From UHGV virus genome UHGV-0134778: a stretch of 64,000 nt of DNA; one strand, written 5' to 3'. Shown here piece after piece: positions 19,090 to 42,503 of this stretch. The first letter of the stretch is position 1; each line of letters opens with the position of its first letter. Source of the stretch: a virus. Made by a program: the position numbers and the translations under genes. Under the pieces are notes generated by a model. The model saw nothing but the letters and a program-made list of their open reading frames with translations, had not been told where the DNA came from and searched no databases.

Positions 19090-19118
19090 AGAATAGCAAA
19101 AGGGGCCGAACAAGTCAA
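19090..19118 (-). promoter_or_regulatory. sigma70-type promoter followed by the 17-nt motif
   Basis: Minus strand TTGACT (19113-19118), 17 nt, TATTCT (19090-19095); motif copy at 19045-19061 lies 28 nt downstream of the -10. Confidence 0.45.
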
Positions 19119-19147
19119 CCCCAAAATCAGTACCAAAACACTTTTAT

Positions 19148-19792: not shown

Positions 19793-20077
19793 TTAACGGT
19801 TCACGTAAGTTTTCCCGTTTACGGTTATCGGCAGATCCTCCAGGTCTGGATCTTCTTTAAGGTCGCGAGCAAGTTCACCGCACCGGACGCCCTCGAATCC
19901 GTAGTACTCTGTCGTTCCGTCCTTAAAAGTTTTTGCGGCAAGGCATAAGCGATAAGTAACACCGATTTGATTGACGGCATGGATATCAGTTAGATCTACC
20001 TCTTTTGCCAGCTCTTTGGCCATTACAGGCGCATTAAGTCCAATAACCAAGGCAACCACTGCGATCATCTTTTTCAT
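19793..20077 (-). CDS. secreted/periplasmic hypothetical protein
   Basis: N-terminal signal-peptide-like MKKMIAVVALVIGLNAPVMA; RBS AGAGAATAG-like. Confidence 0.5.
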   Translation of the reverse strand: MKKMIAVVALVIGLNAPVMAKELAKEVDLTDIHAVNQIGVTYRLCLAAKTFKDGTTEYYGFEGVRCGELARDLKEDPDLEDLPITVNGKTYVNR

Positions 20078-20847: not shown

Positions 20848-21077
20848 CTATTTTCAAAAAATTTTTCTGCTGTGATATTTTTCCCGGTAGGGTTCGCTAC
20901 TTTTAAAATTCTATCATGCACCGGACGCCCGAAAGAATAAGATCCGTATACAGTAAACCAATAATCACCGTCAGGCTGTACTATTACCGCCGCATATGGT
21001 ACGCCTTTTTCATTATTGCTCACAAAATAGATCACATTGCCATTAATAGCCTCAGCGCGTTTAATTTGTTCCATCAT
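20844..21077 (-). CDS. hypothetical protein
   Basis: 77 aa; RBS AAGAGAGG. Confidence 0.5.
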   Translation of the reverse strand: MMEQIKRAEAINGNVIYFVSNNEKGVPYAAVIVQPDGDYWFTVYGSYSFGRPVHDRILKVANPTGKNITAEKFFENS

Positions 21078-21133
21078 GATGATTTGCCTCTCTTTATTTT
21101 CATAATTGGGGGGCCTTTTCGGCCCCGCCAGGT

Positions 21134-21418
21134 TTATTTATTGATAGCGTGCAGCGGGAAAGGTACGCCAGGTTGATAGATAACTTTTACAACCTCATCA
21201 GGACAAAAGAAGTTGCAGAACTCACCGCAATAGGCCTCATCCTCTTTCAACTCTTCATCAACATACTCAAAAAAGTAGTCGATGCTTGGATAATCCTGGC
21301 CGGGATTATAGTCGACCATCGTTAATAGTAACTCTTGATCATTCCGTAGGATATGCATACCCGCTTTTAAGTATTTTGCTTCCATTTCTACTACATCGCC
21401 AACGGTAACAATAGCCAT
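21134..21418 (-). CDS. hypothetical acidic protein
   Basis: 94 aa; RBS GGAG. Confidence 0.5.
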   Translation of the reverse strand: MAIVTVGDVVEMEAKYLKAGMHILRNDQELLLTMVDYNPGQDYPSIDYFFEYVDEELKEDEAYCGEFCNFFCPDEVVKVIYQPGVPFPLHAINK

Positions 21419-21642
21419 GGTTTTAACTCCTATCTATCCGGTTAATGATTGGGGGCCGCCCCCCTGATACGTCCTATTATCCATATTGTAGGGCTTGATG
21501 CAAGTACTTCTTTAAATTTTTTTAAGCGCCTTGGGGGCCGCTGTAACGCTAAAATAATAAAGGCCATGCAACCGCATAGCCTTTATGTGATTATATCGCT
21601 TCAGGCCCTGCTAGGGGCCTTATTTTGCATCATTTGCCGGAA

Positions 21643-21948
21643 TTATTCAGAGAAAACATCGTTCACAATAGCGATCACAATGCCGCCCACCTTGTCACGG
21701 TCAACAATGCACAAATCACCATAGATCATGTGGTAGTCTGGATGATCTTTCACGGAATAGTCAATGAGCGTTTTCTTGTCGTCCAGCTTTGTAACTTCCA
21801 TTCTCATAACGATACGAGAATCATCAAAGGCATTATTCCGAAAAGTCATAGCCTGACCACCAGGGCACCCAGTGATCTCCACTTCCACGCCGTCTACGAT
21901 CTGACCATCAAAGAAATAAAGATTATTGGCGGGTATAAACATGATCAT
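21643..21948 (-). CDS. hypothetical protein
   Basis: Start taken at an ATG (21948 or 21942) after AAAAGGAG rather than the track GTG at 21963; lies downstream of 45-bp element copy 1. Confidence 0.5.
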   Translation of the reverse strand: MIMFIPANNLYFFDGQIVDGVEVEITGCPGGQAMTFRNNAFDDSRIVMRMEVTKLDDKKTLIDYSVKDHPDYHMIYGDLCIVDRDKVGGIVIAIVNDVFSE

Positions 21949-21986
21949 TGCTCCTTTTTGCACTGATTATTTTAACAGGGTTTAAA

Positions 21987-22031
21987 TTTACTTTATTGAT
22001 GGCCCTGGAGTCAAGGCCATCTAAAAATAAA
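21987..22031 (-). promoter_or_regulatory. 45-bp conserved promoter/operator element, copy 1
   Basis: TTTACTTTATTGATGGCCCTGGAGTCAAGGCCATCTAAAAATAAA, identical in all three copies. Minus strand reads TTGACT-N18-TAAATT; palindrome GATGGCC/GGCCATC flanks the -35. Confidence 0.5.
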
Positions 22032-22033
22032 TT

Positions 22034-22234
22034 TTACAGATCTACAATCTCTTTAATTCGTTTTACTGCTGCCTCAGCGCCTTGAGGGTAGAAATTATGA
22101 TAACCAATCACGCGGGTAATACTGATCGCCGCTTGGTGGTCCTCGTAGTCGCCTTTGAATATTTCTTGACCATCAACCAGCACAGCAATTTTTTCTTCTT
22201 TTTTGAAGTTAATAACGCGGATATTGTTGCTCAT
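22034..22234 (-). CDS. hypothetical protein
   Basis: 66 aa; leader has hairpin GGGGAGACACTCCCC and RBS AAAGGGGA. Confidence 0.5.
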   Translation of the reverse strand: MSNNIRVINFKKEEKIAVLVDGQEIFKGDYEDHQAAISITRVIGYHNFYPQGAEAAVKRIKEIVDL

Positions 22235-22337
22235 TTTGTTTCCCCTTTTGGAACTTTGTCTGTGTGGTGGGGAGTGTCTCCCCGTTGATTGTTATTATCC
22301 ATATTCTGGACCGGATTGCAACACTCAGGAAGAAAAA

Positions 22338-22375
22338 TTTTTTGAAAAAAGTTAGGCCCCCAGGGATCGGGGGCC
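22338..22375 (-). terminator. intrinsic terminator (minus strand)
   Basis: Minus strand GGCCCCC-GATCCCT-GGGGGCC followed by TAACTTTTTTCAAAAAA. Confidence 0.55.
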
Positions 22376-22379
22376 GTTA

Positions 22380-22499
22380 TCAGTTGCTTACAGCGATAAA
22401 ATACATCCCTACGCCTAACAATATTTCAAGGGCGATGATCTCCAGCCATACCATAACACGGCGCGCCTTATCGGTGCGGGGCTTATCCTTGGGTGTCAT
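22380..22499 (-). CDS. micro-protein with hydrophobic C-terminus (39 aa)
   Basis: Read manually; followed directly by the minus-strand terminator at 22338-22375. Confidence 0.3.
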   Translation of the reverse strand: MTPKDKPRTDKARRVMVWLEIIALEILLGVGMYFIAVSN

Positions 22500-22718
22500 C
22501 GTCTCCCTCTTTCCTCCTGTTAGTAGTGACGTGGTTTACAATGGTCCCCAGGAGTACTATCGCCACGCACATTACGAGAAAAATTATTTCTTCCGTTGTT
22601 CGGTCCATTGTTATAAAACCTCTCAAGATCAGGCCTAAAAGTAAATCTTTCGTTATTGAATCCGTCACGCCAGGCGGCTGGCTTCAAATCTTCACTAAAT
22701 GGATTAATTAACGTGGCA

Positions 22719-23090
22719 TTATTTAAACGGTTGGCCCACATATTTTCTATTCCTCTCAAATAGGCGATCCGCCTCAGTTAAACATATCTCATGGGCGTGA
22801 TCTCTGGTTTTAGCTTCATCAAAAACCTGTTGTGCAAGGCTGCAACGTAGGGAGACTGGAAGATCACTATAATAGGCGTTGACAAACGTTTGAGCGTCGT
22901 ACAGGTCTGAAAATACTTTACCCTTTCTATTATTCCCCTTGTCAACAATTGCAAGGATAACCAATACAATAGTTGCAACCACCCCCAGGAAAATAGATAT
23001 AATAAACCATAAAAAGGCGGATCTTCCCATCTTGCCAGCGATCCAGGCGTTAAACAAGGCAACCAATATAGCCAAAATAATAAATTCCAT
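22719..23090 (-). CDS. membrane protein
   Basis: Two to three transmembrane segments in the first 60 aa (IILAILVALFNAWIA, FLWFIISIFLGVVATIVLVILAIV). Confidence 0.5.
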   Translation of the reverse strand: MEFIILAILVALFNAWIAGKMGRSAFLWFIISIFLGVVATIVLVILAIVDKGNNRKGKVFSDLYDAQTFVNAYYSDLPVSLRCSLAQQVFDEAKTRDHAHEICLTEADRLFERNRKYVGQPFK

Positions 23091-23156
23091 TCTATGTACC
23101 CTCTTACAATTCTGCGTAGCAATAAGGCGGCAAATATGCCGCCGCCTGTTACCTGA

Positions 23157-23573
23157 TTAAAAATTATCGCCGTAAATCTTTCCGCTTTCTACCCATACCA
23201 CCACGCGAGGCATACTATCCCACACGTCTTGTTTTAGATTGAGCGCGTGCAATTCTTCGGTGGTGCTCATACCAGGCACGGGCTGATTGTATACTGCAAA
23301 ACGACCACCTGCATAATCATAGGCCAGAGTTAAATCACACTGGATCATCTTTTTGATCATGGCGTTAAGCATAGCGTTAGCCGCATATTGGTCACGTTTT
23401 AAAGGCAACTCTTTGATTAGTTTGCGATAGTTTTCGATATGGTCGCACACTGTTTCACGTGGAAGATCTTTCATATCTTCACGGAATGTAACCAGGTTAA
23501 ACATAACGGTGTCAATAGCCTTGGTGGTGTTTTTCATGATGTTTTCCTCTTTGTTTTGTGTGGGGCAAGTCAT
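23157..23573 (-). CDS. hypothetical protein
   Basis: 138 aa; TTGCAA-N16-TATATT promoter, leader hairpin and RBS AAAGAGGA upstream. Confidence 0.5.
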   Translation of the reverse strand: MTCPTQNKEENIMKNTTKAIDTVMFNLVTFREDMKDLPRETVCDHIENYRKLIKELPLKRDQYAANAMLNAMIKKMIQCDLTLAYDYAGGRFAVYNQPVPGMSTTEELHALNLKQDVWDSMPRVVVWVESGKIYGDNF

Positions 23574-23627
23574 CTCGCCCCCTTGATTTTTAATATAGCA
23601 GGTTTTTAGATTATTGCAACACTTTTC

Positions 23628-24251
23628 TTATGAAAAACTCATCTCACCATATTCATCTACATCAAACCGCCAGTCGTTGGCCTGGATGAGGTCGATCAAG
23701 GTCTCGACTGCAAATTGTTCGTCGTAGGCATTCTCCAGATCTACGTAAACCTTGCGAGAAATTTCTCTGACCGTCTCAGTGATCAACTCTTCCAGCTCTT
23801 CAACCTTGCTTTCTTGCTTGGCGGTCAGATTCAGCCAAGTAGTATCAATGTATCCGCTTACAGTGTTTTCGTGACTATGGCGGCTATATGGATCACGCTC
23901 AACACTTGCAGATAGCTCGCCATCGTGCATTGTGCCGAACAAGTGACGAATTGAGCGGAATTTAGTCAGAGATTTGACTTTACGCAAGAATTTTTCTAAA
24001 TCAACGTTTTCAGCACTGATTGACGCGCCGTCACCCTGGCACCAAAAGCCGGACCAATGTACTTCGGTATCTTCAAGGCCATACTCTGGAAAAACATATT
24101 CTTTATAGTATTCAATCACGCTTTCTGCAAAAAAGTTATCCCCGCTGTGTTCTTCTCTTTCGCGGACCATTTCAACGGCTTTTTCTTTTTGTTCGTCGGT
24201 CAGCACGTCGAAAGATAAGTTGTAACCTGTGGTAATGTTAACGGTGGTCAT
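23628..24251 (-). CDS. hypothetical acidic protein
   Basis: 207 aa; promoter 24309-24336, leader hairpin 24280-24298, RBS AGGAG. Confidence 0.55.
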   Translation of the reverse strand: MTTVNITTGYNLSFDVLTDEQKEKAVEMVREREEHSGDNFFAESVIEYYKEYVFPEYGLEDTEVHWSGFWCQGDGASISAENVDLEKFLRKVKSLTKFRSIRHLFGTMHDGELSASVERDPYSRHSHENTVSGYIDTTWLNLTAKQESKVEELEELITETVREISRKVYVDLENAYDEQFAVETLIDLIQANDWRFDVDEYGEMSFS

Positions 24252-24279
24252 GATATTTTCTCCTGTTTTCTTTATTAGT

Positions 24280-24298
24280 GGCGGGAAGTTTTCCCGCC
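24280..24298 (-). promoter_or_regulatory. leader hairpin, GGCGGGAA...TTCCCGCC family
   Basis: Perfect 8-bp stem with 3-nt loop between promoter 24309-24336 and the RBS of 23628..24251. Related hairpins at 26144-26160 and 26825-26843. Confidence 0.45.
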
Positions 24299-24308
24299 TG
24301 TGTGTTTA

Positions 24309-24336
24309 ATTATACTTATTGAGATTTACTTGTCAA
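24309..24336 (-). promoter_or_regulatory. sigma70-type promoter (consensus hexamers)
   Basis: Minus strand TTGACA (24331-24336), 16 nt, TATAAT (24309-24314). Confidence 0.65.
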
Positions 24337-24586
24337 CACTATTTTTTAAATTATTGTGGCGTAAAATGTTCAAGATCTCTTCAACGTCATCAACACGGCG
24401 GCAATTTTTAAACGCTACCAATTGCCCCATGATTTTAATCACTGGGCGGCCTTGCCAGTGCCCCTGGAGAAAGCGCGCCTTGACTTTATCGGTGGAGCTA
24501 TCACGCCACCAAATGGCCTTGTTGTTGCAGTAGTAAAAATTATTCAGGACAACATCAACCTTATCAAAATTTTTTAATTTACGCAT
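24326..24586 (-). CDS. hypothetical protein
   Basis: 86 aa; promoter 24619-24646 and RBS AAAGGAG upstream. Confidence 0.5.
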   Translation of the reverse strand: MRKLKNFDKVDVVLNNFYYCNNKAIWWRDSSTDKVKARFLQGHWQGRPVIKIMGQLVAFKNCRRVDDVEEILNILRHNNLKNSVDK

Positions 24587-24618
24587 GGCGTTTACTCCTT
24601 TCTCTCTTTGATGTGGTT

Positions 24619-24646
24619 AGTATAGCTAACCTGTTTAAGATGTCAA
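24619..24646 (-). promoter_or_regulatory. sigma70-type promoter
   Basis: Minus strand TTGACA (24641-24646), 16 nt, TATACT (24619-24624). Confidence 0.55.
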
Positions 24647-24790
24647 GCTTTAAATAAAATCACTGTCAATAATATTTTTAACGCCATAAAACGGCCCTGG
24701 GCGATGTTTTCAGGTTAAGAAAGGGGATTGCATAGGTGGGGGCCTTTTTGGCGCTTATAGGGCCAACCAGGGGCGCTATTCGTAGGATAG

Positions 24791-24818
24791 AAATAAAAAG
24801 CCCCGCACAATGGCGGGG
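24791..24818 (-). terminator. intrinsic terminator (minus strand)
   Basis: Minus strand CCCCGC-CATTGT-GCGGGG followed by CTTTTTATTT. Confidence 0.55.
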
Positions 24819-24827
24819 CGTTGGTTG

Positions 24828-25025
24828 TTATTTGTCTTTATGGCGGTATCGTTCTGCCTGTCGTTCACGTTCCAAAAGTAGGCCAGGCAATTTACGATCA
24901 TAATGATTTCGCCAGATCTTTCCAAATCTTTTTGGCTTATTCAGTTTATTGTTACGCTGGCGGCGTTCCGGCAACTCTTCGGAATCATGAGGACGCTTTA
25001 CAATTTTTTCGAAATTAATTTTCAT
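24828..25025 (-). CDS. small basic protein
   Basis: Arg/Lys-rich; start taken at the ATG after AAGGGGGAAG. Terminator 24791-24818 follows. Confidence 0.4.
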   Translation of the reverse strand: MKINFEKIVKRPHDSEELPERRQRNNKLNKPKRFGKIWRNHYDRKLPGLLLERERQAERYRHKDK

Positions 25026-25386
25026 AGCTTCCCCCTTTACTGATTTCAATATTTGCCTGAATCGCCCGGATACGGCGTTTTATAACCTCCTGATCCGTGC
25101 AATCATATCCCCAAAAGTCTACAATTTTTGCGCCCCCAGCTTTTAAGCGGTATAGTGTTTCTTGCATCTTGTAAGCTGGGATCGGTCGTGGTGTTACCTG
25201 GTCGCCTTTCTCATCCTTGTACTTGATAATATAATCTTCATTGTCGTTGAATACCCAAAATGGGTATTCTGTAAGGGCGTTGCTCTCTTTTTCGTTTTTG
25301 GATTGGATCTTGTTTACAATTAAAGCCGTAGCAATAGCGCCAATGATAAAACTTGCACCGCTGATCATGTTACTTTCTCCTTTCAT
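25015..25386 (-). CDS. membrane-anchored hypothetical protein
   Basis: N-terminal ISGASFIIGAIATALIV; RBS AAAGGAGA. Confidence 0.5.
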   Translation of the reverse strand: MKGESNMISGASFIIGAIATALIVNKIQSKNEKESNALTEYPFWVFNDNEDYIIKYKDEKGDQVTPRPIPAYKMQETLYRLKAGGAKIVDFWGYDCTDQEVIKRRIRAIQANIEISKGGSYEN

Positions 25387-25443
25387 GGTGTTAATAAATT
25401 ATCTTTATAGATGGCCCTGCAGCCAGGACCACCGAAAAAATAA

Positions 25444-25689
25444 CTATTTCACAATGCCTACAAAACAGATCCCGCCTTCCCCGACGTAGGCAATATCGGT
25501 CACTTTATAGTCGGTTAAGATCTGTTTATTCAGATCATTAATAAAATCGGTCATTGCGTTGGTGTAGTTGTCTTCCATATCTAAGGCATAATCCCAGGTG
25601 TAAACCTTTTTACGTCCGAAGCCTTTTACCATGATACGGGCGCTTTTGGTGTTGGTAGGCGCATAATATTTGGTGATTAGTGCTGCCAT
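25444..25689 (-). CDS. hypothetical protein
   Basis: 81 aa; downstream of 45-bp element copy 2; RBS AGAGGAG. Confidence 0.5.
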   Translation of the reverse strand: MAALITKYYAPTNTKSARIMVKGFGRKKVYTWDYALDMEDNYTNAMTDFINDLNKQILTDYKVTDIAYVGEGGICFVGIVK

Positions 25690-25732
25690 GGTTTTAACTC
25701 CTCTGTATTAGTTCAGTGTTAACAGTGTAAAG

Positions 25733-25777
25733 TTTACTTTATTGATGGCCCTGGAGTCAAGGCCATCTAAAAATAAA
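25733..25777 (-). promoter_or_regulatory. 45-bp conserved promoter/operator element, copy 2
   Basis: Identical 45-mer; the candidate -10 here is TAAACT because the flank differs. Confidence 0.5.
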
Positions 25778-25778
25778 T

Positions 25779-26120
25779 TTACTCGTTTTCTTCCAGTTCT
25801 GCAAGCTCTTCTTTTGCTTCTTCCAACTCTGTCTGTAATTCCTGGTATTCTTCATCGTCCTCAATATCCAGGCTGTCGATGTAGTCGCTAAATCCGCAGC
25901 GGTAAGCGATAGGATCTAGCTCCTTGAGGATACGCGACGGAAGAAAAGAAATGTTTCCGATCATGATTTCGCCGTAGACCTCGTCTAACCATTCATCATA
26001 GTTTTCGTCGTACTTGTCCTCGTCGATTTCAAAGTTATCGATCTTGTTCTCAAGGTCTGCGATCTGTTTTTTCAGTGCGGCAACCTGAATAGCTTTTTCT
26101 GCGGTGGTCATAGTAGTCAT
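25779..26120 (-). CDS. hypothetical acidic coiled-coil protein
   Basis: 113 aa; promoter 26172-26199, hairpin 26144-26160, RBS AAAAGGAGA. Confidence 0.5.
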   Translation of the reverse strand: MTTMTTAEKAIQVAALKKQIADLENKIDNFEIDEDKYDENYDEWLDEVYGEIMIGNISFLPSRILKELDPIAYRCGFSDYIDSLDIEDDEEYQELQTELEEAKEELAELEENE

Positions 26121-26171
26121 GGCGTTTTCTCCTTTTGTGTGTTCTGGGAAGTTTTCCCGTTTACGTGTTTA

Positions 26172-26199
26172 AGTATACCGATTCAGATTAGCTTGTCAA
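26172..26199 (-). promoter_or_regulatory. sigma70-type promoter
   Basis: Minus strand TTGACA (26194-26199), 16 nt, TATACT (26172-26177). Confidence 0.55.
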
Positions 26200-26319
26200 T
26201 TAAAAATTTAAGAAAAATTTTGCAAAACTGTTAGCGCTACTCATTAACATTTGCGCCAGGATGTACCCGACAACGCAAACGATAATAGTTACCTTTGTGT
26301 ATTGGCGTGTAGTGCTCAT
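26200..26319 (-). CDS. micro-protein, hydrophobic (39 aa)
   Basis: ATG after AAGGGGGC; lies in the leader of the transcript from 45-bp element copy 3; VTIIVCVVGYILAQML is a membrane segment. Confidence 0.35.
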   Translation of the reverse strand: MSTTRQYTKVTIIVCVVGYILAQMLMSSANSFAKFFLNF

Positions 26320-26354
26320 CTTAAAGCCCCCTTTTTTCGCTTAACTGAGATTAA

Positions 26355-26399
26355 TTTACTTTATTGATGGCCCTGGAGTCAAGGCCATCTAAAAATAAA
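26355..26399 (-). promoter_or_regulatory. 45-bp conserved promoter/operator element, copy 3
   Basis: Identical 45-mer immediately after the stop of 26401..26805 and upstream of micro-ORF 26200..26319. Confidence 0.5.
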
Positions 26400-26400
26400 C

Positions 26401-26805
26401 TTAGTAAGTTTTCAGTACTTTCCCGTCCAACCTGTCAAGCTGAATCTCGATAGCTGCAGAAAACCTATTGTACACCACGTCGCCCATGGAATCCAACCAG
26501 TCTATGACGTTATATACTTGCTCTTTGTTCTTGCAGGTCCGGATCCGTTTCATGATGTAAGCCGGATCAATATTGGTACTTTCGTTAGTGTTCCCCTGTA
26601 CCTGATTTGCCGTATTAGTTACATCTTTAATGGCCTTTACCACCACCTGGAAGGGCTTTAAGGTGCCTTTTGCGTTCATCTCACGCGCTTTTGCGGCGCG
26701 GTTGTTATATGTTACACAACGGCGGCAAATGTTCACCAAATGCATGTCAATAATTTTTTCATCGTTTGCCAGTTCGTTCATGATGCGGCGTACGTTCTTA
26801 TTCAT
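26401..26805 (-). CDS. hypothetical protein
   Basis: 134 aa; leader hairpin 26825-26843; RBS AAAGGAAAAAG. Confidence 0.5.
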   Translation of the reverse strand: MNKNVRRIMNELANDEKIIDMHLVNICRRCVTYNNRAAKAREMNAKGTLKPFQVVVKAIKDVTNTANQVQGNTNESTNIDPAYIMKRIRTCKNKEQVYNVIDWLDSMGDVVYNRFSAAIEIQLDRLDGKVLKTY

Positions 26806-26887
26806 GATCTTTTTCCTTTGTGTTGGCGGGAAACATTCCCGCCTTTTGTGACTAGTTTACTTGAATTTTGCAGCGTGTCAACAATTT

Positions 26888-27286
26888 TTATTCGTGGGCG
26901 CATGTTACAATGTGCTTTTTATAGCCCAGGTGGTTAGCAAGTGCCGACAAAAACTCTTCTTCATAGATCCAGCCGTTGGCAGTGATCCCCATAGCATTTA
27001 ATGCGCTCTCAAGTGCTGCATTAGCTTTATCGTAGCCGTGACCGCTCGCCTTCCCGCCAGTATAACCGTACTTATTGTTCTTGTTGTCGTGAATCCAAAA
27101 AACGCAGTATTGAGTGTTCCCGCTGGCGGCGGCATAATACCGGATCTCAGCTACTTCGTGCAAATTATTGTCATCGTCCAGGCCCACCAGATTATAAGCC
27201 TTGTAAAATCCACGATCACGGCGGCAGTTCTTGACATCAGAAAAAGAAAAGTCCGCATTATCAAAATTAAAGGTAGTGGTTTTCAT
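26888..27286 (-). CDS. hypothetical protein
   Basis: 132 aa; promoter 27319-27347 and RBS AAGAGGA. Confidence 0.5.
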   Translation of the reverse strand: MKTTTFNFDNADFSFSDVKNCRRDRGFYKAYNLVGLDDDNNLHEVAEIRYYAAASGNTQYCVFWIHDNKNNKYGYTGGKASGHGYDKANAALESALNAMGITANGWIYEEEFLSALANHLGYKKHIVTCAHE

Positions 27287-28181: not shown

Positions 28182-28428
28182 GGTGCCCGTTATTCTGCAA
28201 ACGAGAATGATTATCATTCAAAATTCTAAATGAGAACTCCTCGCATTTAATAAATTTAATTAGCATGCTAATTACCCTCCGTAACAATTTCCTATAAAAC
28301 AATATCTCATAAAATATTCCCATATATAAATTTTAAAAATCCATTTCTGAAAACGAAAAATCGATTTCGTCCCCAAAAATTTTAGGTCGAGCGCCGGAAC
28401 GATTTCCAGAAAATCTGATTCAGAAAAC

Positions 28429-28511
28429 GAAAAACAGATCGAGTACTAAGAAATTTATCGAGAAAAATTTTCAGAAAATCAGGTATTTGAAATGAAAAAC
28501 AGATCGAGTAC
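28429..28511. repeat. tandem ~65-bp imperfect duplication containing an 18-bp perfect repeat
   Basis: GAAAAACAGATCGAGTAC at 28429-28446 and 28494-28511; units begin TTCCAGAAAATC (28404) and TTCAGAAAATC (28470); degenerate third copy near 28346. Confidence 0.55.
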
Positions 28512-28633
28512 CGAGAGAGATGTGCCGAAACTTTCTGATAGGTAATGGACTTATTGTTATAAAAGGTCAGAGGTAAGCTGGGAAAGTTCTGGTAGAAGGG
28601 TGAGAGTATGTGCGGAAAATCTGGAATAGTGAC

Positions 28634-32304: not shown

Positions 32305-32366
32305 TTTTCAGGCCTCTTTATACAAAAATGCCCCACCCTTTCGGGCAGGGCTATGTTAACTAGATG

Positions 32367-41698: not shown

Positions 41699-42482
41699 TA
41701 ATTCTGCTCCTTACTGCAGGCTCGTTTGCTAAGAATACAGCTTTAGCCCAGCCACGTGGTGTGAGGCTTCGAATCATCTTCGTCCTTGCACTCTTTCCAC
41801 CTAGCTTAGCGTGTTGCATAGAATAACCGCTAACCGCATCCACTATTTGCGGGACAGGTTTTGTGGCTGGGATTATAAATCCATTGCCTATCCAACCGCA
41901 AGTTATTTTTGGGTAGGCATCACGTGGAGCTATAAATTCAGGAAACCATGGGTTTACATCATCTTCTGGTAAATAACCGCCATAATCTGAAGGATGAAAA
42001 CGATAATCAGGTTTTCGCCACAGTGTGGACATAACCCCCACAGGGTTCTCTACATGCCACGGGCAATCGTAAATCTCTCCCAACTCTTCTGCAACCCGAG
42101 CATCTTTTACAGCATTAATTTGAATCAGAGGGTCCTTAGCCAGCTTTTTCTTAAAATGTGCAGCGCCTGATACTGCTAGATGCGTGCACGGAGGAAATGC
42201 AAGAATAAAGTCTGGAGCTGGGTACATGCAAAAAGTTTCTTGAGGGAACCACGGGTCAATCCAATAATCCACGTAGTGAATGTTTGGATGATCTGTTATC
42301 ACCTCTGCATAACTGCCATGGTCAGCGCCTTCTGCGTTAAAGCACAGGCACAGATATCCAGCTTTTGCCCAGTCAATGACTGCACCGCCAGATCCGTCAA
42401 ATAGACTCCACACAACACCTTTGTGGTGGTGTTCTTTATAGATAAATTTCAATTTGCTGTCTCCTAATGCAAAAAGCCCCAC
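41688..42482 (-). CDS. small C5-cytosine DNA methyltransferase-like protein
   Basis: Motif I-like LFDGSGG, motif IV-like FPPCTHLAVSG (PC catalytic dipeptide), motif VI-like HVENPVG (ENV). Only 264 aa, so activity and specificity are uncertain. Confidence 0.5.
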   Translation of the reverse strand: MGLFALGDSKLKFIYKEHHHKGVVWSLFDGSGGAVIDWAKAGYLCLCFNAEGADHGSYAEVITDHPNIHYVDYWIDPWFPQETFCMYPAPDFILAFPPCTHLAVSGAAHFKKKLAKDPLIQINAVKDARVAEELGEIYDCPWHVENPVGVMSTLWRKPDYRFHPSDYGGYLPEDDVNPWFPEFIAPRDAYPKITCGWIGNGFIIPATKPVPQIVDAVSGYSMQHAKLGGKSARTKMIRSLTPRGWAKAVFLANEPAVRSRINGQ

Positions 42483-42503
42483 CCTTTCGGGCAGGGCCTA
42501 GTG

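What the first reader, a model, noticed from the sequence alone, without database searches (positions are those of the whole stretch)
21987..26399. A 45-bp element present in three identical copies, each reading as a promoter with a palindromic operator
TTTACTTTATTGATGGCCCTGGAGTCAAGGCCATCTAAAAATAAA occurs at 21987-22031, 25733-25777 and 26355-26399 without a mismatch. On the minus strand, the direction of the surrounding genes, each copy gives TTGACT-N18-TAAATT (TAAACT in copy 2). The 7-bp inverted repeat GATGGCC/GGCCATC brackets the -35. Each copy sits just upstream of a gene or micro-ORF start (21948, 25689, 26319). Perfect identity over 45 bp in intergenic DNA, when neighbouring promoters are all different, implies selection on the whole element. 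That fits a binding site for a dimeric regulator that co-controls three transcription units.
Basis: seen in the sequence. Interest (0 to 1): 0.65.

Follow-up and report, generated by a model that had tools for sequence, protein, structure and literature searches.

The report
Promoter-hairpin repeat bounding phage gene cassettes
A 45-bp repeat between small early genes of an rV5-like E. coli phage looks like a host-type promoter built into a hairpin, and its copies recombine with each other, which keeps them identical and lets the genes between them be lost or moved to other phages; this kind of element is already known from T4-like phages.

Summary
The 45-mer occurs three times without a mismatch, against zero expected. 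A fourth, diverged copy lies at 25399-25443. The window is an rV5-like coliphage (Vequintavirus), and about 120 related genomes carry the element, usually in three copies.

The promoter reading is plausible but unproven. The match is only 9 of 12 with an 18-bp spacer. However, TTGAC never varies while its neighbours do, and a phi92-like phage uses the same -10 block.

The operator reading is not supported. The palindrome is really a 21-bp interrupted hairpin that pairs well only on the sense strand, through G·U pairs and stepwise compensatory changes. The diverged copy keeps the hairpin and loses the -35.

The identity of the copies owes much to recombination between them. Derived bases are shared by paralogs within one genome. 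Phages ime and ECP32 and a metagenomic contig lack exactly the 622-bp cassette between copies 3 and 2. Phage KKE7M, from another subfamily, acquired promoter, ORF192 and 45-mer with a junction inside the element.

Best fit: an analogue of the T4-type PeSL promoter/stem-loop cassettes. No transcription start, RNA end or binding has been measured.

The parts
26355..26399 (-). Copy 3 of the 45-mer, between ORF194 (stop at 26401-26403) and the 39-aa ORF193. The extended module is 26343-26409.
25733..25777 (-). Copy 2 of the 45-mer, between ORF192 (stop at 25779-25781) and ORF191. The extended module is 25721-25787.
21987..22031 (-). Copy 1 of the 45-mer, between ORF179 (stop at 22034-22036) and the ORF178/177 homologue. 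The extended module is 21975-22041.
25399..25443 (-). Diverged fourth copy (variant B), between ORF191 and ORF190. It has the same two-stem hairpin (GGUGGUCCUG-GCUG-CAGGGCCAUC). The position of the -35 reads CTGGCT and the -10 position reads GATAAT.
21998..22021 (-). Upper stem-loop of copy 1: 10 bp plus a 4-nt loop, with the -35 TTGACT at 22014-22009 spanning the end of the 5' arm and the loop. The same feature is at 25744-25767 and 26366-26389.
21985..21990 (-). Candidate -10 TAAATT of copy 1. The equivalents are 25731-25736 (TAAACT) and 26353-26358 (TAAATT). Its first four bases also form the 3' arm of the lower stem.
25778..26354 (-). Cassette between copies 3 and 2: ORF193 (26200-26319), near-consensus promoter P192 (26172-26199) with a 5'-UTR hairpin, and ORF192 (25779-26120). 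Together with one 45-mer it makes the 622-bp unit that ime, ECP32 and IMG/VR contig L013 lack.
25444..25689 (-). ORF191 (81 aa, phrog_3199, unknown function), the gene downstream of copy 2.
26200..26319 (-). ORF193 (39 aa, phrog_16391, unknown function), the gene downstream of copy 3.
21643..21948 (-). ORF178/177 homologue (101 aa from the ATG at 21948, phrog_7366, unknown function), the gene downstream of copy 1.

Best explanation
The 45-mer is the core of a roughly 65-nt intercistronic module in the early-gene region of rV5-like phages. It is an analogue of the T4-type PeSL (promoter-early stem-loop) cassettes, and it can be read in three ways.

1. As double-stranded DNA (inferred). It is a moderate host sigma-70 promoter for the next small early gene. 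It has a T-rich UP-like tract, a -35 TTGACN straddling the stem and loop, an 18-bp spacer and a -10 TAAAYT.

2. As read-through RNA from upstream promoters. The structure is supported by covariation; its role is inferred. The RNA folds into a 10-bp G+C stem with a tetraloop, a 2x3-nt internal loop and an A/U lower stem of about 11 bp. No U tract follows, so it is not a canonical terminator. It most likely acts as a processing site or 3'-end barrier that separates and stabilises cistrons, in the manner of a T7 RNase III site, or as a pause or attenuator.

3. As the longest perfect direct repeat in the region (shown by comparison of genomes). The copies recombine with each other. This homogenises them and deletes, inserts or exports the gene cassettes they bound.
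For: Repeat and taxonomic setting:
- Three exact copies plus one diverged copy, and no other family member in the 64-kb window.
- The element is found in 121 phage records, usually three copies each. All are Vequintavirus except one.
- It is absent from 5,426 complete E. coli genomes and from Rfam.

Hairpin:
- Sense-strand RNA folds at -22 to -24 kcal/mol (z -5 to -6.5). The antisense strand folds at -10 to -16 kcal/mol.
- On 28 distinct copies, 96% of cells are paired against 35-55% when partners are slid. The upper stem is 99.6% paired.
- The three differences between the main copies and variant B in the upper stem are all transitions that keep pairing through G·U.
- Four lower-stem pairs show changes on both sides. 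One follows the series U-A (window), U·G (typing phage 4), C-G (rV5, PMBT16).

Promoter:
- TTGAC is invariant, while loop positions 3 and 4 vary (T/A/G and C/T).
- TAAACT serves as the -10 of a clear TTGACA-N16 promoter at 26881-26854.
- Phage Antha has TTGCAA-N16-TAAACT with the same AATAAAGTAAA block, followed at 11 nt by the usual 5'-UTR hairpin.

Recombination:
- ime, ECP32 and contig L013 carry a single hybrid copy, with the upstream flank of copy 3 and the downstream flank of copy 2. The 622-bp unit is missing exactly.
- KKE7M (Justusliebigvirus) carries P192, ORF192 and the exact 45-mer in place of phi92 gp234. The junctions lie in the promoter spacer and in AATAAAGTAAA.
- Derived bases are shared by paralogs of one genome: rV5 c1+c2, MiataMamis c1+c2, slur16 c2+c3, phiWec193 c2+c3.

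Architecture: it matches the published description of PeSLs, namely stop codon in an AT-rich tract, -35/-10, a stem-loop with G-T pairs that may overlap the -35, then SD and ATG (PMC2839356).
Against: - No transcription start, RNA 3' end or cleavage site has been measured for any rV5-like phage that I could find.
- The hexamer match (9 of 12, 18-bp spacer) is no better than many chance matches in this A+T-rich region.
- Phage 206 copy 3 tolerates a 1-nt insertion that makes the spacer 19 bp.
- Near-consensus promoters lie every 0.3-1 kb, so an extra weak promoter may be dispensable.
- The covariation rests on few independent events, mostly the split between the main copies and variant B. The copies are related, so the shuffle control overstates significance.
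- Recombination at the repeat may be a side effect of being a repeat. rV5_ev146 shows deletions at 5-15-nt microhomologies elsewhere.
- There are only 3+1 copies, whereas T4-type phages have dozens of PeSLs.
Confidence: 0.6

Rival explanations
1. The element is a promoter whose palindrome is the operator of a dimeric DNA-binding regulator, of phage or host origin, that co-controls three transcription units.
For: - There are perfect 7-bp arms around the -35 in the three main copies.
- The three copies sit before three genes.
- The 45-mer is much more conserved between genomes (1-4% divergence) than the region as a whole (5-12%).
Against: - Pairing is asymmetric between strands. The extra pairs and all changes in variant B are G·U on the sense strand, which means mismatched half-sites in duplex DNA.
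- Variant B keeps the hairpin with 7 of 10 DNA symmetry and no -35.
- Compensatory changes extend into an A/U lower stem that an operator would not need.
- The 7-bp arms are 17 bp apart centre to centre, which is off-phase for a symmetric dimer. This is an inference.
- No candidate regulator was identified. The flanking genes have no Pfam domain.
Confidence: 0.1
2. A purely RNA-level element. It is an intercistronic hairpin that is an RNase III (T7 R-site-like) or RNase E-linked processing and stability signal. The resemblance to a promoter comes from the A/T-rich arms and a chance TTGAC.
For: - The sense-strand-specific, covarying 21-bp interrupted helix has an asymmetric internal loop.
- It lies directly after stop codons inside multi-gene early operons, which have their own strong promoters and canonical terminators.
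- Variant B works without a -35.
- The hexamer match is statistically unremarkable.
Against: - TTGAC is invariant in all main copies while the rest of the loop varies.
- T6 and A2 of the -10 are invariant.
- The AATAAAGTAAAYT block is shared with a hairpin-less promoter of phi92-like phages at the same distance from the downstream 5'-UTR hairpin.
- RNase III site determinants were not testable here.
Confidence: 0.2
3. An intrinsic (rho-independent) terminator or attenuator that ends the upstream early transcripts, as proposed for PeSL stem-loops.
For: - The hairpin is stable and G+C-rich, and it begins 2-3 nt after the stop codon.
- A PeSL stem-loop was reported to reduce downstream lacZ expression about as much as rrnB T1 (PMC2839356).
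Against: - The stem is followed by AAUAAAGUAAAUUU, with no U tract on either strand, and it was not called by the terminator scan.
- The same region contains canonical hairpin-plus-T-tract terminators, for example at 24819-24800, 22375-22355 and 19122-19102. The phage therefore uses the standard design where it terminates.
Confidence: 0.07

Closest known systems
PeSLs (promoter-early stem-loops) of T4-type phages RB49/phi1, T4/PST and KVP40/nt-1 (Arbiol et al. 2010, PMC2839356; Comeau et al. 2014, PMC4122927)
   Same: - Both are intergenic modules in a region of small ORFans.
- The module starts at the upstream stop codon in an AT-rich tract.
- It carries a sigma-70-type -35 and -10, and a stem-loop with G-T pairs that may overlap the -35, followed by SD and ATG.
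- Copies are repeated, and they mark the ends of insertions, deletions and replacements between close relatives.
   Different: - The host phage belongs to a different subfamily (Vequintavirinae), and there is no sequence homology to PeSLs.
- There are only 3+1 copies rather than dozens.
- The copies are nearly identical.
- The hexamers are weaker than the consensus-like PeSL promoters.
- The stem is not polyG/polyC.
- The flanks add a second, A/U helix.
- Promoter activity, terminator activity and mini-circles have not been tested here.
RNase III processing sites of T7 early mRNA (R0.3 to R1.3). This comparison is from my own knowledge, not from a tool.
   Same: - Both are intercistronic and lie just after a stop codon.
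- Both have two helices of about 10 bp separated by an asymmetric internal loop, about two helical turns in all.
- Cleavage would leave a protective 3' hairpin on the upstream message.
   Different: - There is no sequence similarity and no cleavage data.
- T7 sites do not contain promoters.
- RNase III determinants and antideterminants were not evaluated.
Overlapping terminator/promoter pairs. One example is in this window at 19122-19102. A 2026 bioRxiv preprint on coupling of promoters and terminators was seen only as a title and abstract.
   Same: The -35 lies inside a hairpin at the end of the upstream gene, so the end of one transcription unit and the start of the next share the same bases.
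   Different: The 45-mer hairpin lacks the T tract that makes the 19122 example a canonical terminator.
Small palindromic intergenic repeats that carry promoters and RNase III-cleaved hairpins, such as Neisseria Correia elements, and E. coli REP/BIME elements. This comparison is from my own knowledge.
   Same: These are short repeated palindromic units between genes that fold in mRNA, can affect message stability, and act as substrates for recombination.
   Different: Those are bacterial chromosomal elements present in hundreds of copies. The 45-mer has no match in 5,426 E. coli genomes.

Membership tests
PeSL-type promoter/stem-loop cassette | Intergenic position in a variable region of small ORFans, beginning at the upstream stop codon within an AT-rich tract and ending with SD and start codon | tested here: met
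   The copies start 2-3 nt after TAA. SD and ATG follow 27-37 nt downstream. All flanking genes are PHROG families of unknown function with no Pfam hit.
PeSL-type promoter/stem-loop cassette | Sigma-70-like -35 and -10 boxes close to consensus, with demonstrated promoter activity | tested here: inconclusive
   The boxes read TTGACT-N18-TAAAYT, which is 9 of 12. This is weaker than PeSL promoters and weaker than the neighbouring 10-12 of 12 promoters. Conservation pattern and the Antha comparison support function. Activity cannot be tested with these tools.
PeSL-type promoter/stem-loop cassette | A stable stem-loop within or overlapping the promoter | tested here: met
   A 10-bp stem with a tetraloop spans the -35. 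Folding energy is -23 kcal/mol with z about -6, and 96% of cells are paired across 28 copies.
PeSL-type promoter/stem-loop cassette | Copies mark the boundaries of insertions, deletions or replacements between related phages | tested here: met
   There is an exact 622-bp cassette loss between copies 3 and 2 in ime, ECP32 and L013. The KKE7M cassette replacement has a junction inside the 45-mer.
PeSL-type promoter/stem-loop cassette | Many copies spread through hyperplastic regions; excised mini-circles detectable | tested here: not met
   There are only 3 main copies and 1 diverged copy in the window, and about 3 per genome. Mini-circles cannot be tested with these tools.
Intrinsic (rho-independent) terminator | A G+C-rich hairpin immediately followed by a U-rich tract | tested here: not met
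   The tail is AAUAAAGUAAAUUU on the sense strand and UAAAAAUAAA on the antisense strand. The element was not called by the scan, which did find canonical terminators nearby.
RNase III processing site (T7 type) | About 20 bp of helix, often interrupted by an asymmetric internal loop, in an intercistronic position | tested here: met
   There are 10 plus about 11 bp separated by a 2x3-nt internal loop, directly after stop codons inside operons.
RNase III processing site (T7 type) | Cleavage by RNase III and an acceptable proximal/distal box sequence | not testable with these tools
   No cleavage data exist and no validated scoring model was available.
Palindromic operator of a dimeric regulator | Two-fold symmetric half-sites in duplex DNA, conserved as such among copies | tested here: not met
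   Symmetry is 9 of 10 in the main copies and 7 of 10 in variant B. All departures are G·U-compatible on one strand only.
Known RNA family (Rfam 15) | A match at or near the gathering score | tested here: not met
   The region 21000-27000 was searched. Only three sub-threshold chance hits were found, none meaningful for the element.

The most novel reading that the evidence does not exclude
The hairpin is not just packaging around a promoter but a switch that couples the two readings. One version: transcription arriving from upstream, or supercoiling-driven extrusion, folds the -35 into a loop and silences the internal promoter, or processing of the read-through RNA sets the ratio of upstream to downstream cistrons. 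Another version: a phage protein recognises the structured single strand. Either would be a structure-gated host-type promoter, in a phage group whose transcription has never been mapped.
Probability: 0.12. Interest if true: 0.7.

Novelty: new member of a known kind. Interest (0 to 1): 0.4.

Why it matters
rV5-like phages are widely used for typing and biocontrol of E. coli O157, and they are well represented in phage collections. Their early region is a block of unknown small genes whose regulation has never been mapped.

This element gives a concrete handle on that region, a defined 65-nt module to test as promoter, RNA processing site and recombination site.

It also shows, from natural variants, how early-gene cassettes are lost within the genus and passed to a different subfamily (phi92-like) through short shared promoter sequences.

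If confirmed, the PeSL idea of regulatory cassettes that also act as recombination joints would extend beyond T4-type phages. Conceptually this is an extension of a known principle, not a new one.

Tried and rejected
- IMG/VR scan for CAGGGCCATCWATAAAG gave 15 loci. At least three loci from two contigs (L010 and L014 from one, L013) are rV5-like; the others did not match the 45-mer at up to 13 substitutions. No new variants were found.
- A covariance model built from 29 copies found no further family member in the 64-kb window with filters off. The next best score was 14.6 bits at E=2.8.
- Rfam gave nothing relevant.
- E. coli genomes gave no match. The plasmid collection gave one record, which is evidently an rV5-like phage genome. 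A host REP-like origin is therefore rejected.
- Deeper orthologous comparison failed. ORF190 is confined to the genus. Distant ORF192 homologues lie in unrelated phages, and their flanks were not examined.
- Literature searches found no transcription-start or RNA-end data for Vequintavirus. The rV5 genome paper and GenBank record do not annotate the element.
- A canonical terminator reading was rejected for lack of a U tract.
- The block ATAAAGTAAAYT is not a general motif of this phage's promoters. It occurs only in the three copies.
- An ungapped comparison of flanks overstated flank divergence because of indels. I do not use those numbers.

Full report
OBSERVATION. The 45-mer TTTACTTTATTGATGGCCCTGGAGTCAAGGCCATCTAAAAATAAA occurs at 21987-22031, 25733-25777 and 26355-26399. 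There are no other matches at up to three mismatches and none in 100 shuffles. All genes here run on the minus strand. On that strand the element reads TTTATTTTTAGATGGCCTTGACTCCAGGGCCATCAATAAAGTAAA. It begins 2-3 nt after the TAA of the upstream gene, and an SD and start codon follow 27-37 nt later. The consensus scan reports TTGACT-N18-TAAATT/TAAACT for each copy. The repeat finder adds a fourth, diverged copy. It is 62% identical over 63 nt, and its 45-nt core is at 25399-25443, between ORF191 and ORF190. The same result shows that similarity among the main copies extends to about 63 nt.

CONTEXT. The window is an rV5-like E. coli myophage of the genus Vequintavirus. It is 92-96% identical to phages 203/206, S127 BCL3, FV3 and rV5. 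The region is the early block of small ORFans. All seven flanking proteins fall into PHROG families of unknown function and have no Pfam domain. Neither the rV5 GenBank annotation nor the rV5 paper mentions the element. The promoters they annotate here (P186, P192) are the near-consensus TTGACA-N16/17-TATAMT sites. A 69-nt query finds the element in 121 phage records, usually three places per genome. All are Vequintavirus apart from one phi92-like phage. It is absent from 5,426 complete E. coli genomes. It is absent from plasmids apart from one mis-filed phage genome. It is absent from Rfam. A covariance model finds no further member in the window.

THE PALINDROME IS A STRAND-SPECIFIC TWO-STEM HAIRPIN. 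As sense-strand RNA each copy folds into four parts. There is a 10-bp upper stem (GAUGGCCUUG/CAGGGCCAUC, with one U·G pair) and a tetraloop. Below these are a 2x3-nt internal loop and a 10-13-bp A/U lower stem made from the T-rich and A-rich flanks. Folding energy is -22.7 to -24.3 kcal/mol, with z from -5.7 to -6.5. The opposite strand folds at -16 kcal/mol.

Variant B folds the same way on the sense strand (-22.4 kcal/mol) but hardly at all on the antisense strand (-10.1 kcal/mol, z -0.6). As DNA the difference between strands is smaller for the main copy, and variant B folds weakly.

I collected copies from 14 Vequintavirus loci, the phi92-like phage KKE7M and two IMG/VR contigs. On 28 distinct sequences, 96.1% of cells are paired. 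Sliding the partners by 1-3 columns gives 35-55%. The upper stem is 99.6% paired.

The three upper-stem differences between the main copies and variant B are A-U to G·U, C-G to U·G and U·G to C-G. All are pair-preserving transitions on this strand only. By my own estimate, three random substitutions would all preserve pairing with a probability of roughly 0.001-0.004.

The lower stem has four pairs with changes on both sides. One of them shows the stepwise series U-A (window), U·G (typing phage 4) and C-G (rV5, PMBT16).

There are caveats. The independent events are few, and the sequences are related. One copy (phiWec193 c2) breaks the U·G pair, and several copies break the outermost pairs.

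This pattern fits selection on a single-stranded structure, most simply RNA. It argues against a symmetric duplex operator.

IS IT A PROMOTER? Taken alone the hexamers are unremarkable. The match is 9 of 12 with an 18-bp spacer. The region has 44 such matches on both strands against 27 expected, and the evident early promoters score 10-12 of 12 with 16-17-bp spacers. Three further observations favour function.

First, in all 21 distinct main copies aligned TTGAC is invariant, whereas the next two bases vary (sixth -35 position T/A/G, then C/T). All four loop positions differ between the main copies and variant B.

Second, A2 and T6 of TAAAYT are invariant. TAAACT is also the -10 of a clear TTGACA-N16 promoter upstream of ORF194, which has the usual 5'-UTR hairpin 10 nt downstream.

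Third, the phi92-like phage Antha has TTGCAA-N16-TAAACT at the place where KKE7M has the 45-mer. It is preceded by the same AATAAAG and followed at 11 nt by the 5'-UTR hairpin of the next gene, and it has no promoter-embedded hairpin.

The upstream AATTTATTTTT resembles the distal UP-element subsite, about 2 nt off its usual position. That comparison rests on my own knowledge.

Against a promoter, variant B has CTGGCT or CTGGTW where the -35 should be. Phage 206 copy 3 has a 19-bp spacer. No transcription-start data exist.

IS IT A TERMINATOR? The stem is followed by AAUAAAGUAAAUUU, and on the other strand by UAAAAAUAAA. The scan did not call it. The same scan did call canonical hairpin-plus-T-tract sites on the same strand at 24819-24800, 22375-22355, 21586-21557 and 19122-19102. 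Those sites, together with the strong promoters, place the copies inside multi-gene early operons. One runs P(26881)-ORF194-c3-ORF193-P192-ORF192-c2-ORF191-B-ORF190. Another runs P(22321)-ORF179-c1-ORF178/177. A hairpin of about two helical turns with an asymmetric internal loop at such junctions recalls the RNase III sites of T7 early mRNA. That resemblance comes from memory and is a lead, not a test.

WHY THE COPIES ARE IDENTICAL: RECOMBINATION. Three lines of evidence point to recombination between copies.

(a) Phages ime and ECP32 and IMG/VR contig L013 carry a single hybrid copy. Its upstream flank is that of copy 3 (the end of ORF194) and its downstream flank is that of copy 2 (the start of ORF191). 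BLAST shows both window copies aligning to the same 45 bp, and the 622-bp unit (ORF193, P192, ORF192 and one 45-mer) is missing exactly. The flanking haplotypes differ among the three, so the allele sits on more than one background.

(b) KKE7M, a Justusliebigvirus of the subfamily Stephanstirmvirinae, carries P192, ORF192 and the exact 45-mer at 94% identity to the window. This replaces the phi92 gp234 homologue found in its close relatives Antha and Paula. The left junction lies in the promoter spacer (TTGACAAGATAACTAAAATC|). The right junction lies in AATAAAGTAAA, the last 11 bases of the 45-mer.

(c) Derived bases are shared by paralogs of the same genome:
- T24 in rV5 and PMBT16, copies 1 and 2;
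- A23 in MiataMamis copies 1 and 2, but in slur16 copies 2 and 3;
- C9 in phiWec193 copies 2 and 3;
- C1 in copy 2 of several phages, but in copy 3 of DrSchubert.

Within-genome paralog divergence is 1.8%. That is no greater than ortholog divergence between genomes, which is 1-4%. This is the signature of gene conversion acting on top of purifying selection. The surrounding region differs by 5-12% between the same genomes.

Recombination at short repeats is general in these phages. rV5_ev146 has deletions joined at 5-15-nt microhomologies. The cassette shuffling may therefore be a consequence of the repeat rather than its selected function.

COMPARISON WITH KNOWN SYSTEMS. The published description of PeSLs in T4-type phages fits point by point. 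It lists a stop codon in an AT-rich tract, sigma-70-type boxes, a stem-loop with G-T pairs that can overlap the -35, then SD and ATG. It also describes repeated copies flanking ORFans, indels bounded by the copies, and crossovers mapped in the loop or the AT-rich tract (PMC2839356; PMC4122927). There are four differences here. The copies are few. The hexamers are weaker. There is a second A/U helix. No functional assays have been done. I found no report of such elements in Vequintavirus.

VERDICT. The promoter reading is plausible. The operator reading is not supported. The best explanation is a PeSL-like composite module combining a promoter, a sense-strand hairpin and a recombination joint. 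I class it as a new member of a known kind, of moderate interest.

Noticed in passing
window 19102-19122 (minus strand), tail to about 19090: GGGGTTGACTTGTTCGGCCCC followed by TTTTGCTATTCT. This is a canonical hairpin-plus-T-tract terminator. Its arm and loop contain a TTGACT -35, and its T tract contains a TG-extended -10 (TTGACT-N17-TATTCT). The terminator and promoter therefore overlap.
   Followed up: partly
window 24283-24336, 26146-26199, 26825-26881, 19799-19823 (minus strand): A family of near-consensus early promoters (TTGACA-N16/17-TAnAcT). Each is followed after 10-13 nt by a conserved 5'-UTR hairpin, GGCGGGAAnnTTTCCCGCC or GGGAAAACTTCCC. Two members are 81% identical over 54 nt. 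The same design occurs in phi92-like phages.
   Followed up: partly
window 28336-28516: An ORF-free stretch with three imperfect repeats spaced 65-74 nt apart (core TCGATCTGTTTTTCRTTT). It looks iteron-like, and its function is unknown.
   Followed up: no
window 21630-21650: Most relatives (slur16, PMBT16, DrSchubert, Phage 206 and others) carry a 351-nt ORF here. This window and FV3 lack it.
   Followed up: partly
L024 (rV5_ev146), equivalent to window 26815/26307 and 24880/19054: There are two deletions, of 0.5 kb and 5.8 kb, joined at 5-15-nt microhomologies. The larger one removes copy 1 of the element and about 20 early ORFs, so these are dispensable in that strain.
   Followed up: partly
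window 25779-26120 (ORF192): This 113-aa ORFan (phrog_9294) has distant homologues (35-58% identity) in Vibrio, Klebsiella and Serratia phages, Pseudomonas PAK_P-like phages, and Providencia/Proteus podophages. It is a widely travelled small gene.
   Followed up: no
PLSDB record CP057073.1 (137,565 bp): This record is filed as a non-mobilizable E. coli plasmid. It carries three copies of the element at rV5-like spacing and has the size of an rV5-like genome, so it is evidently a phage genome.
   Followed up: no
window 32325-32351 and 42471-42497: Two nearly identical (96%) G+C-rich hairpins, AAAAWGCCCCACCCTTTCGGGCAGGGC, lie 10 kb apart. They were not examined.
   Followed up: no
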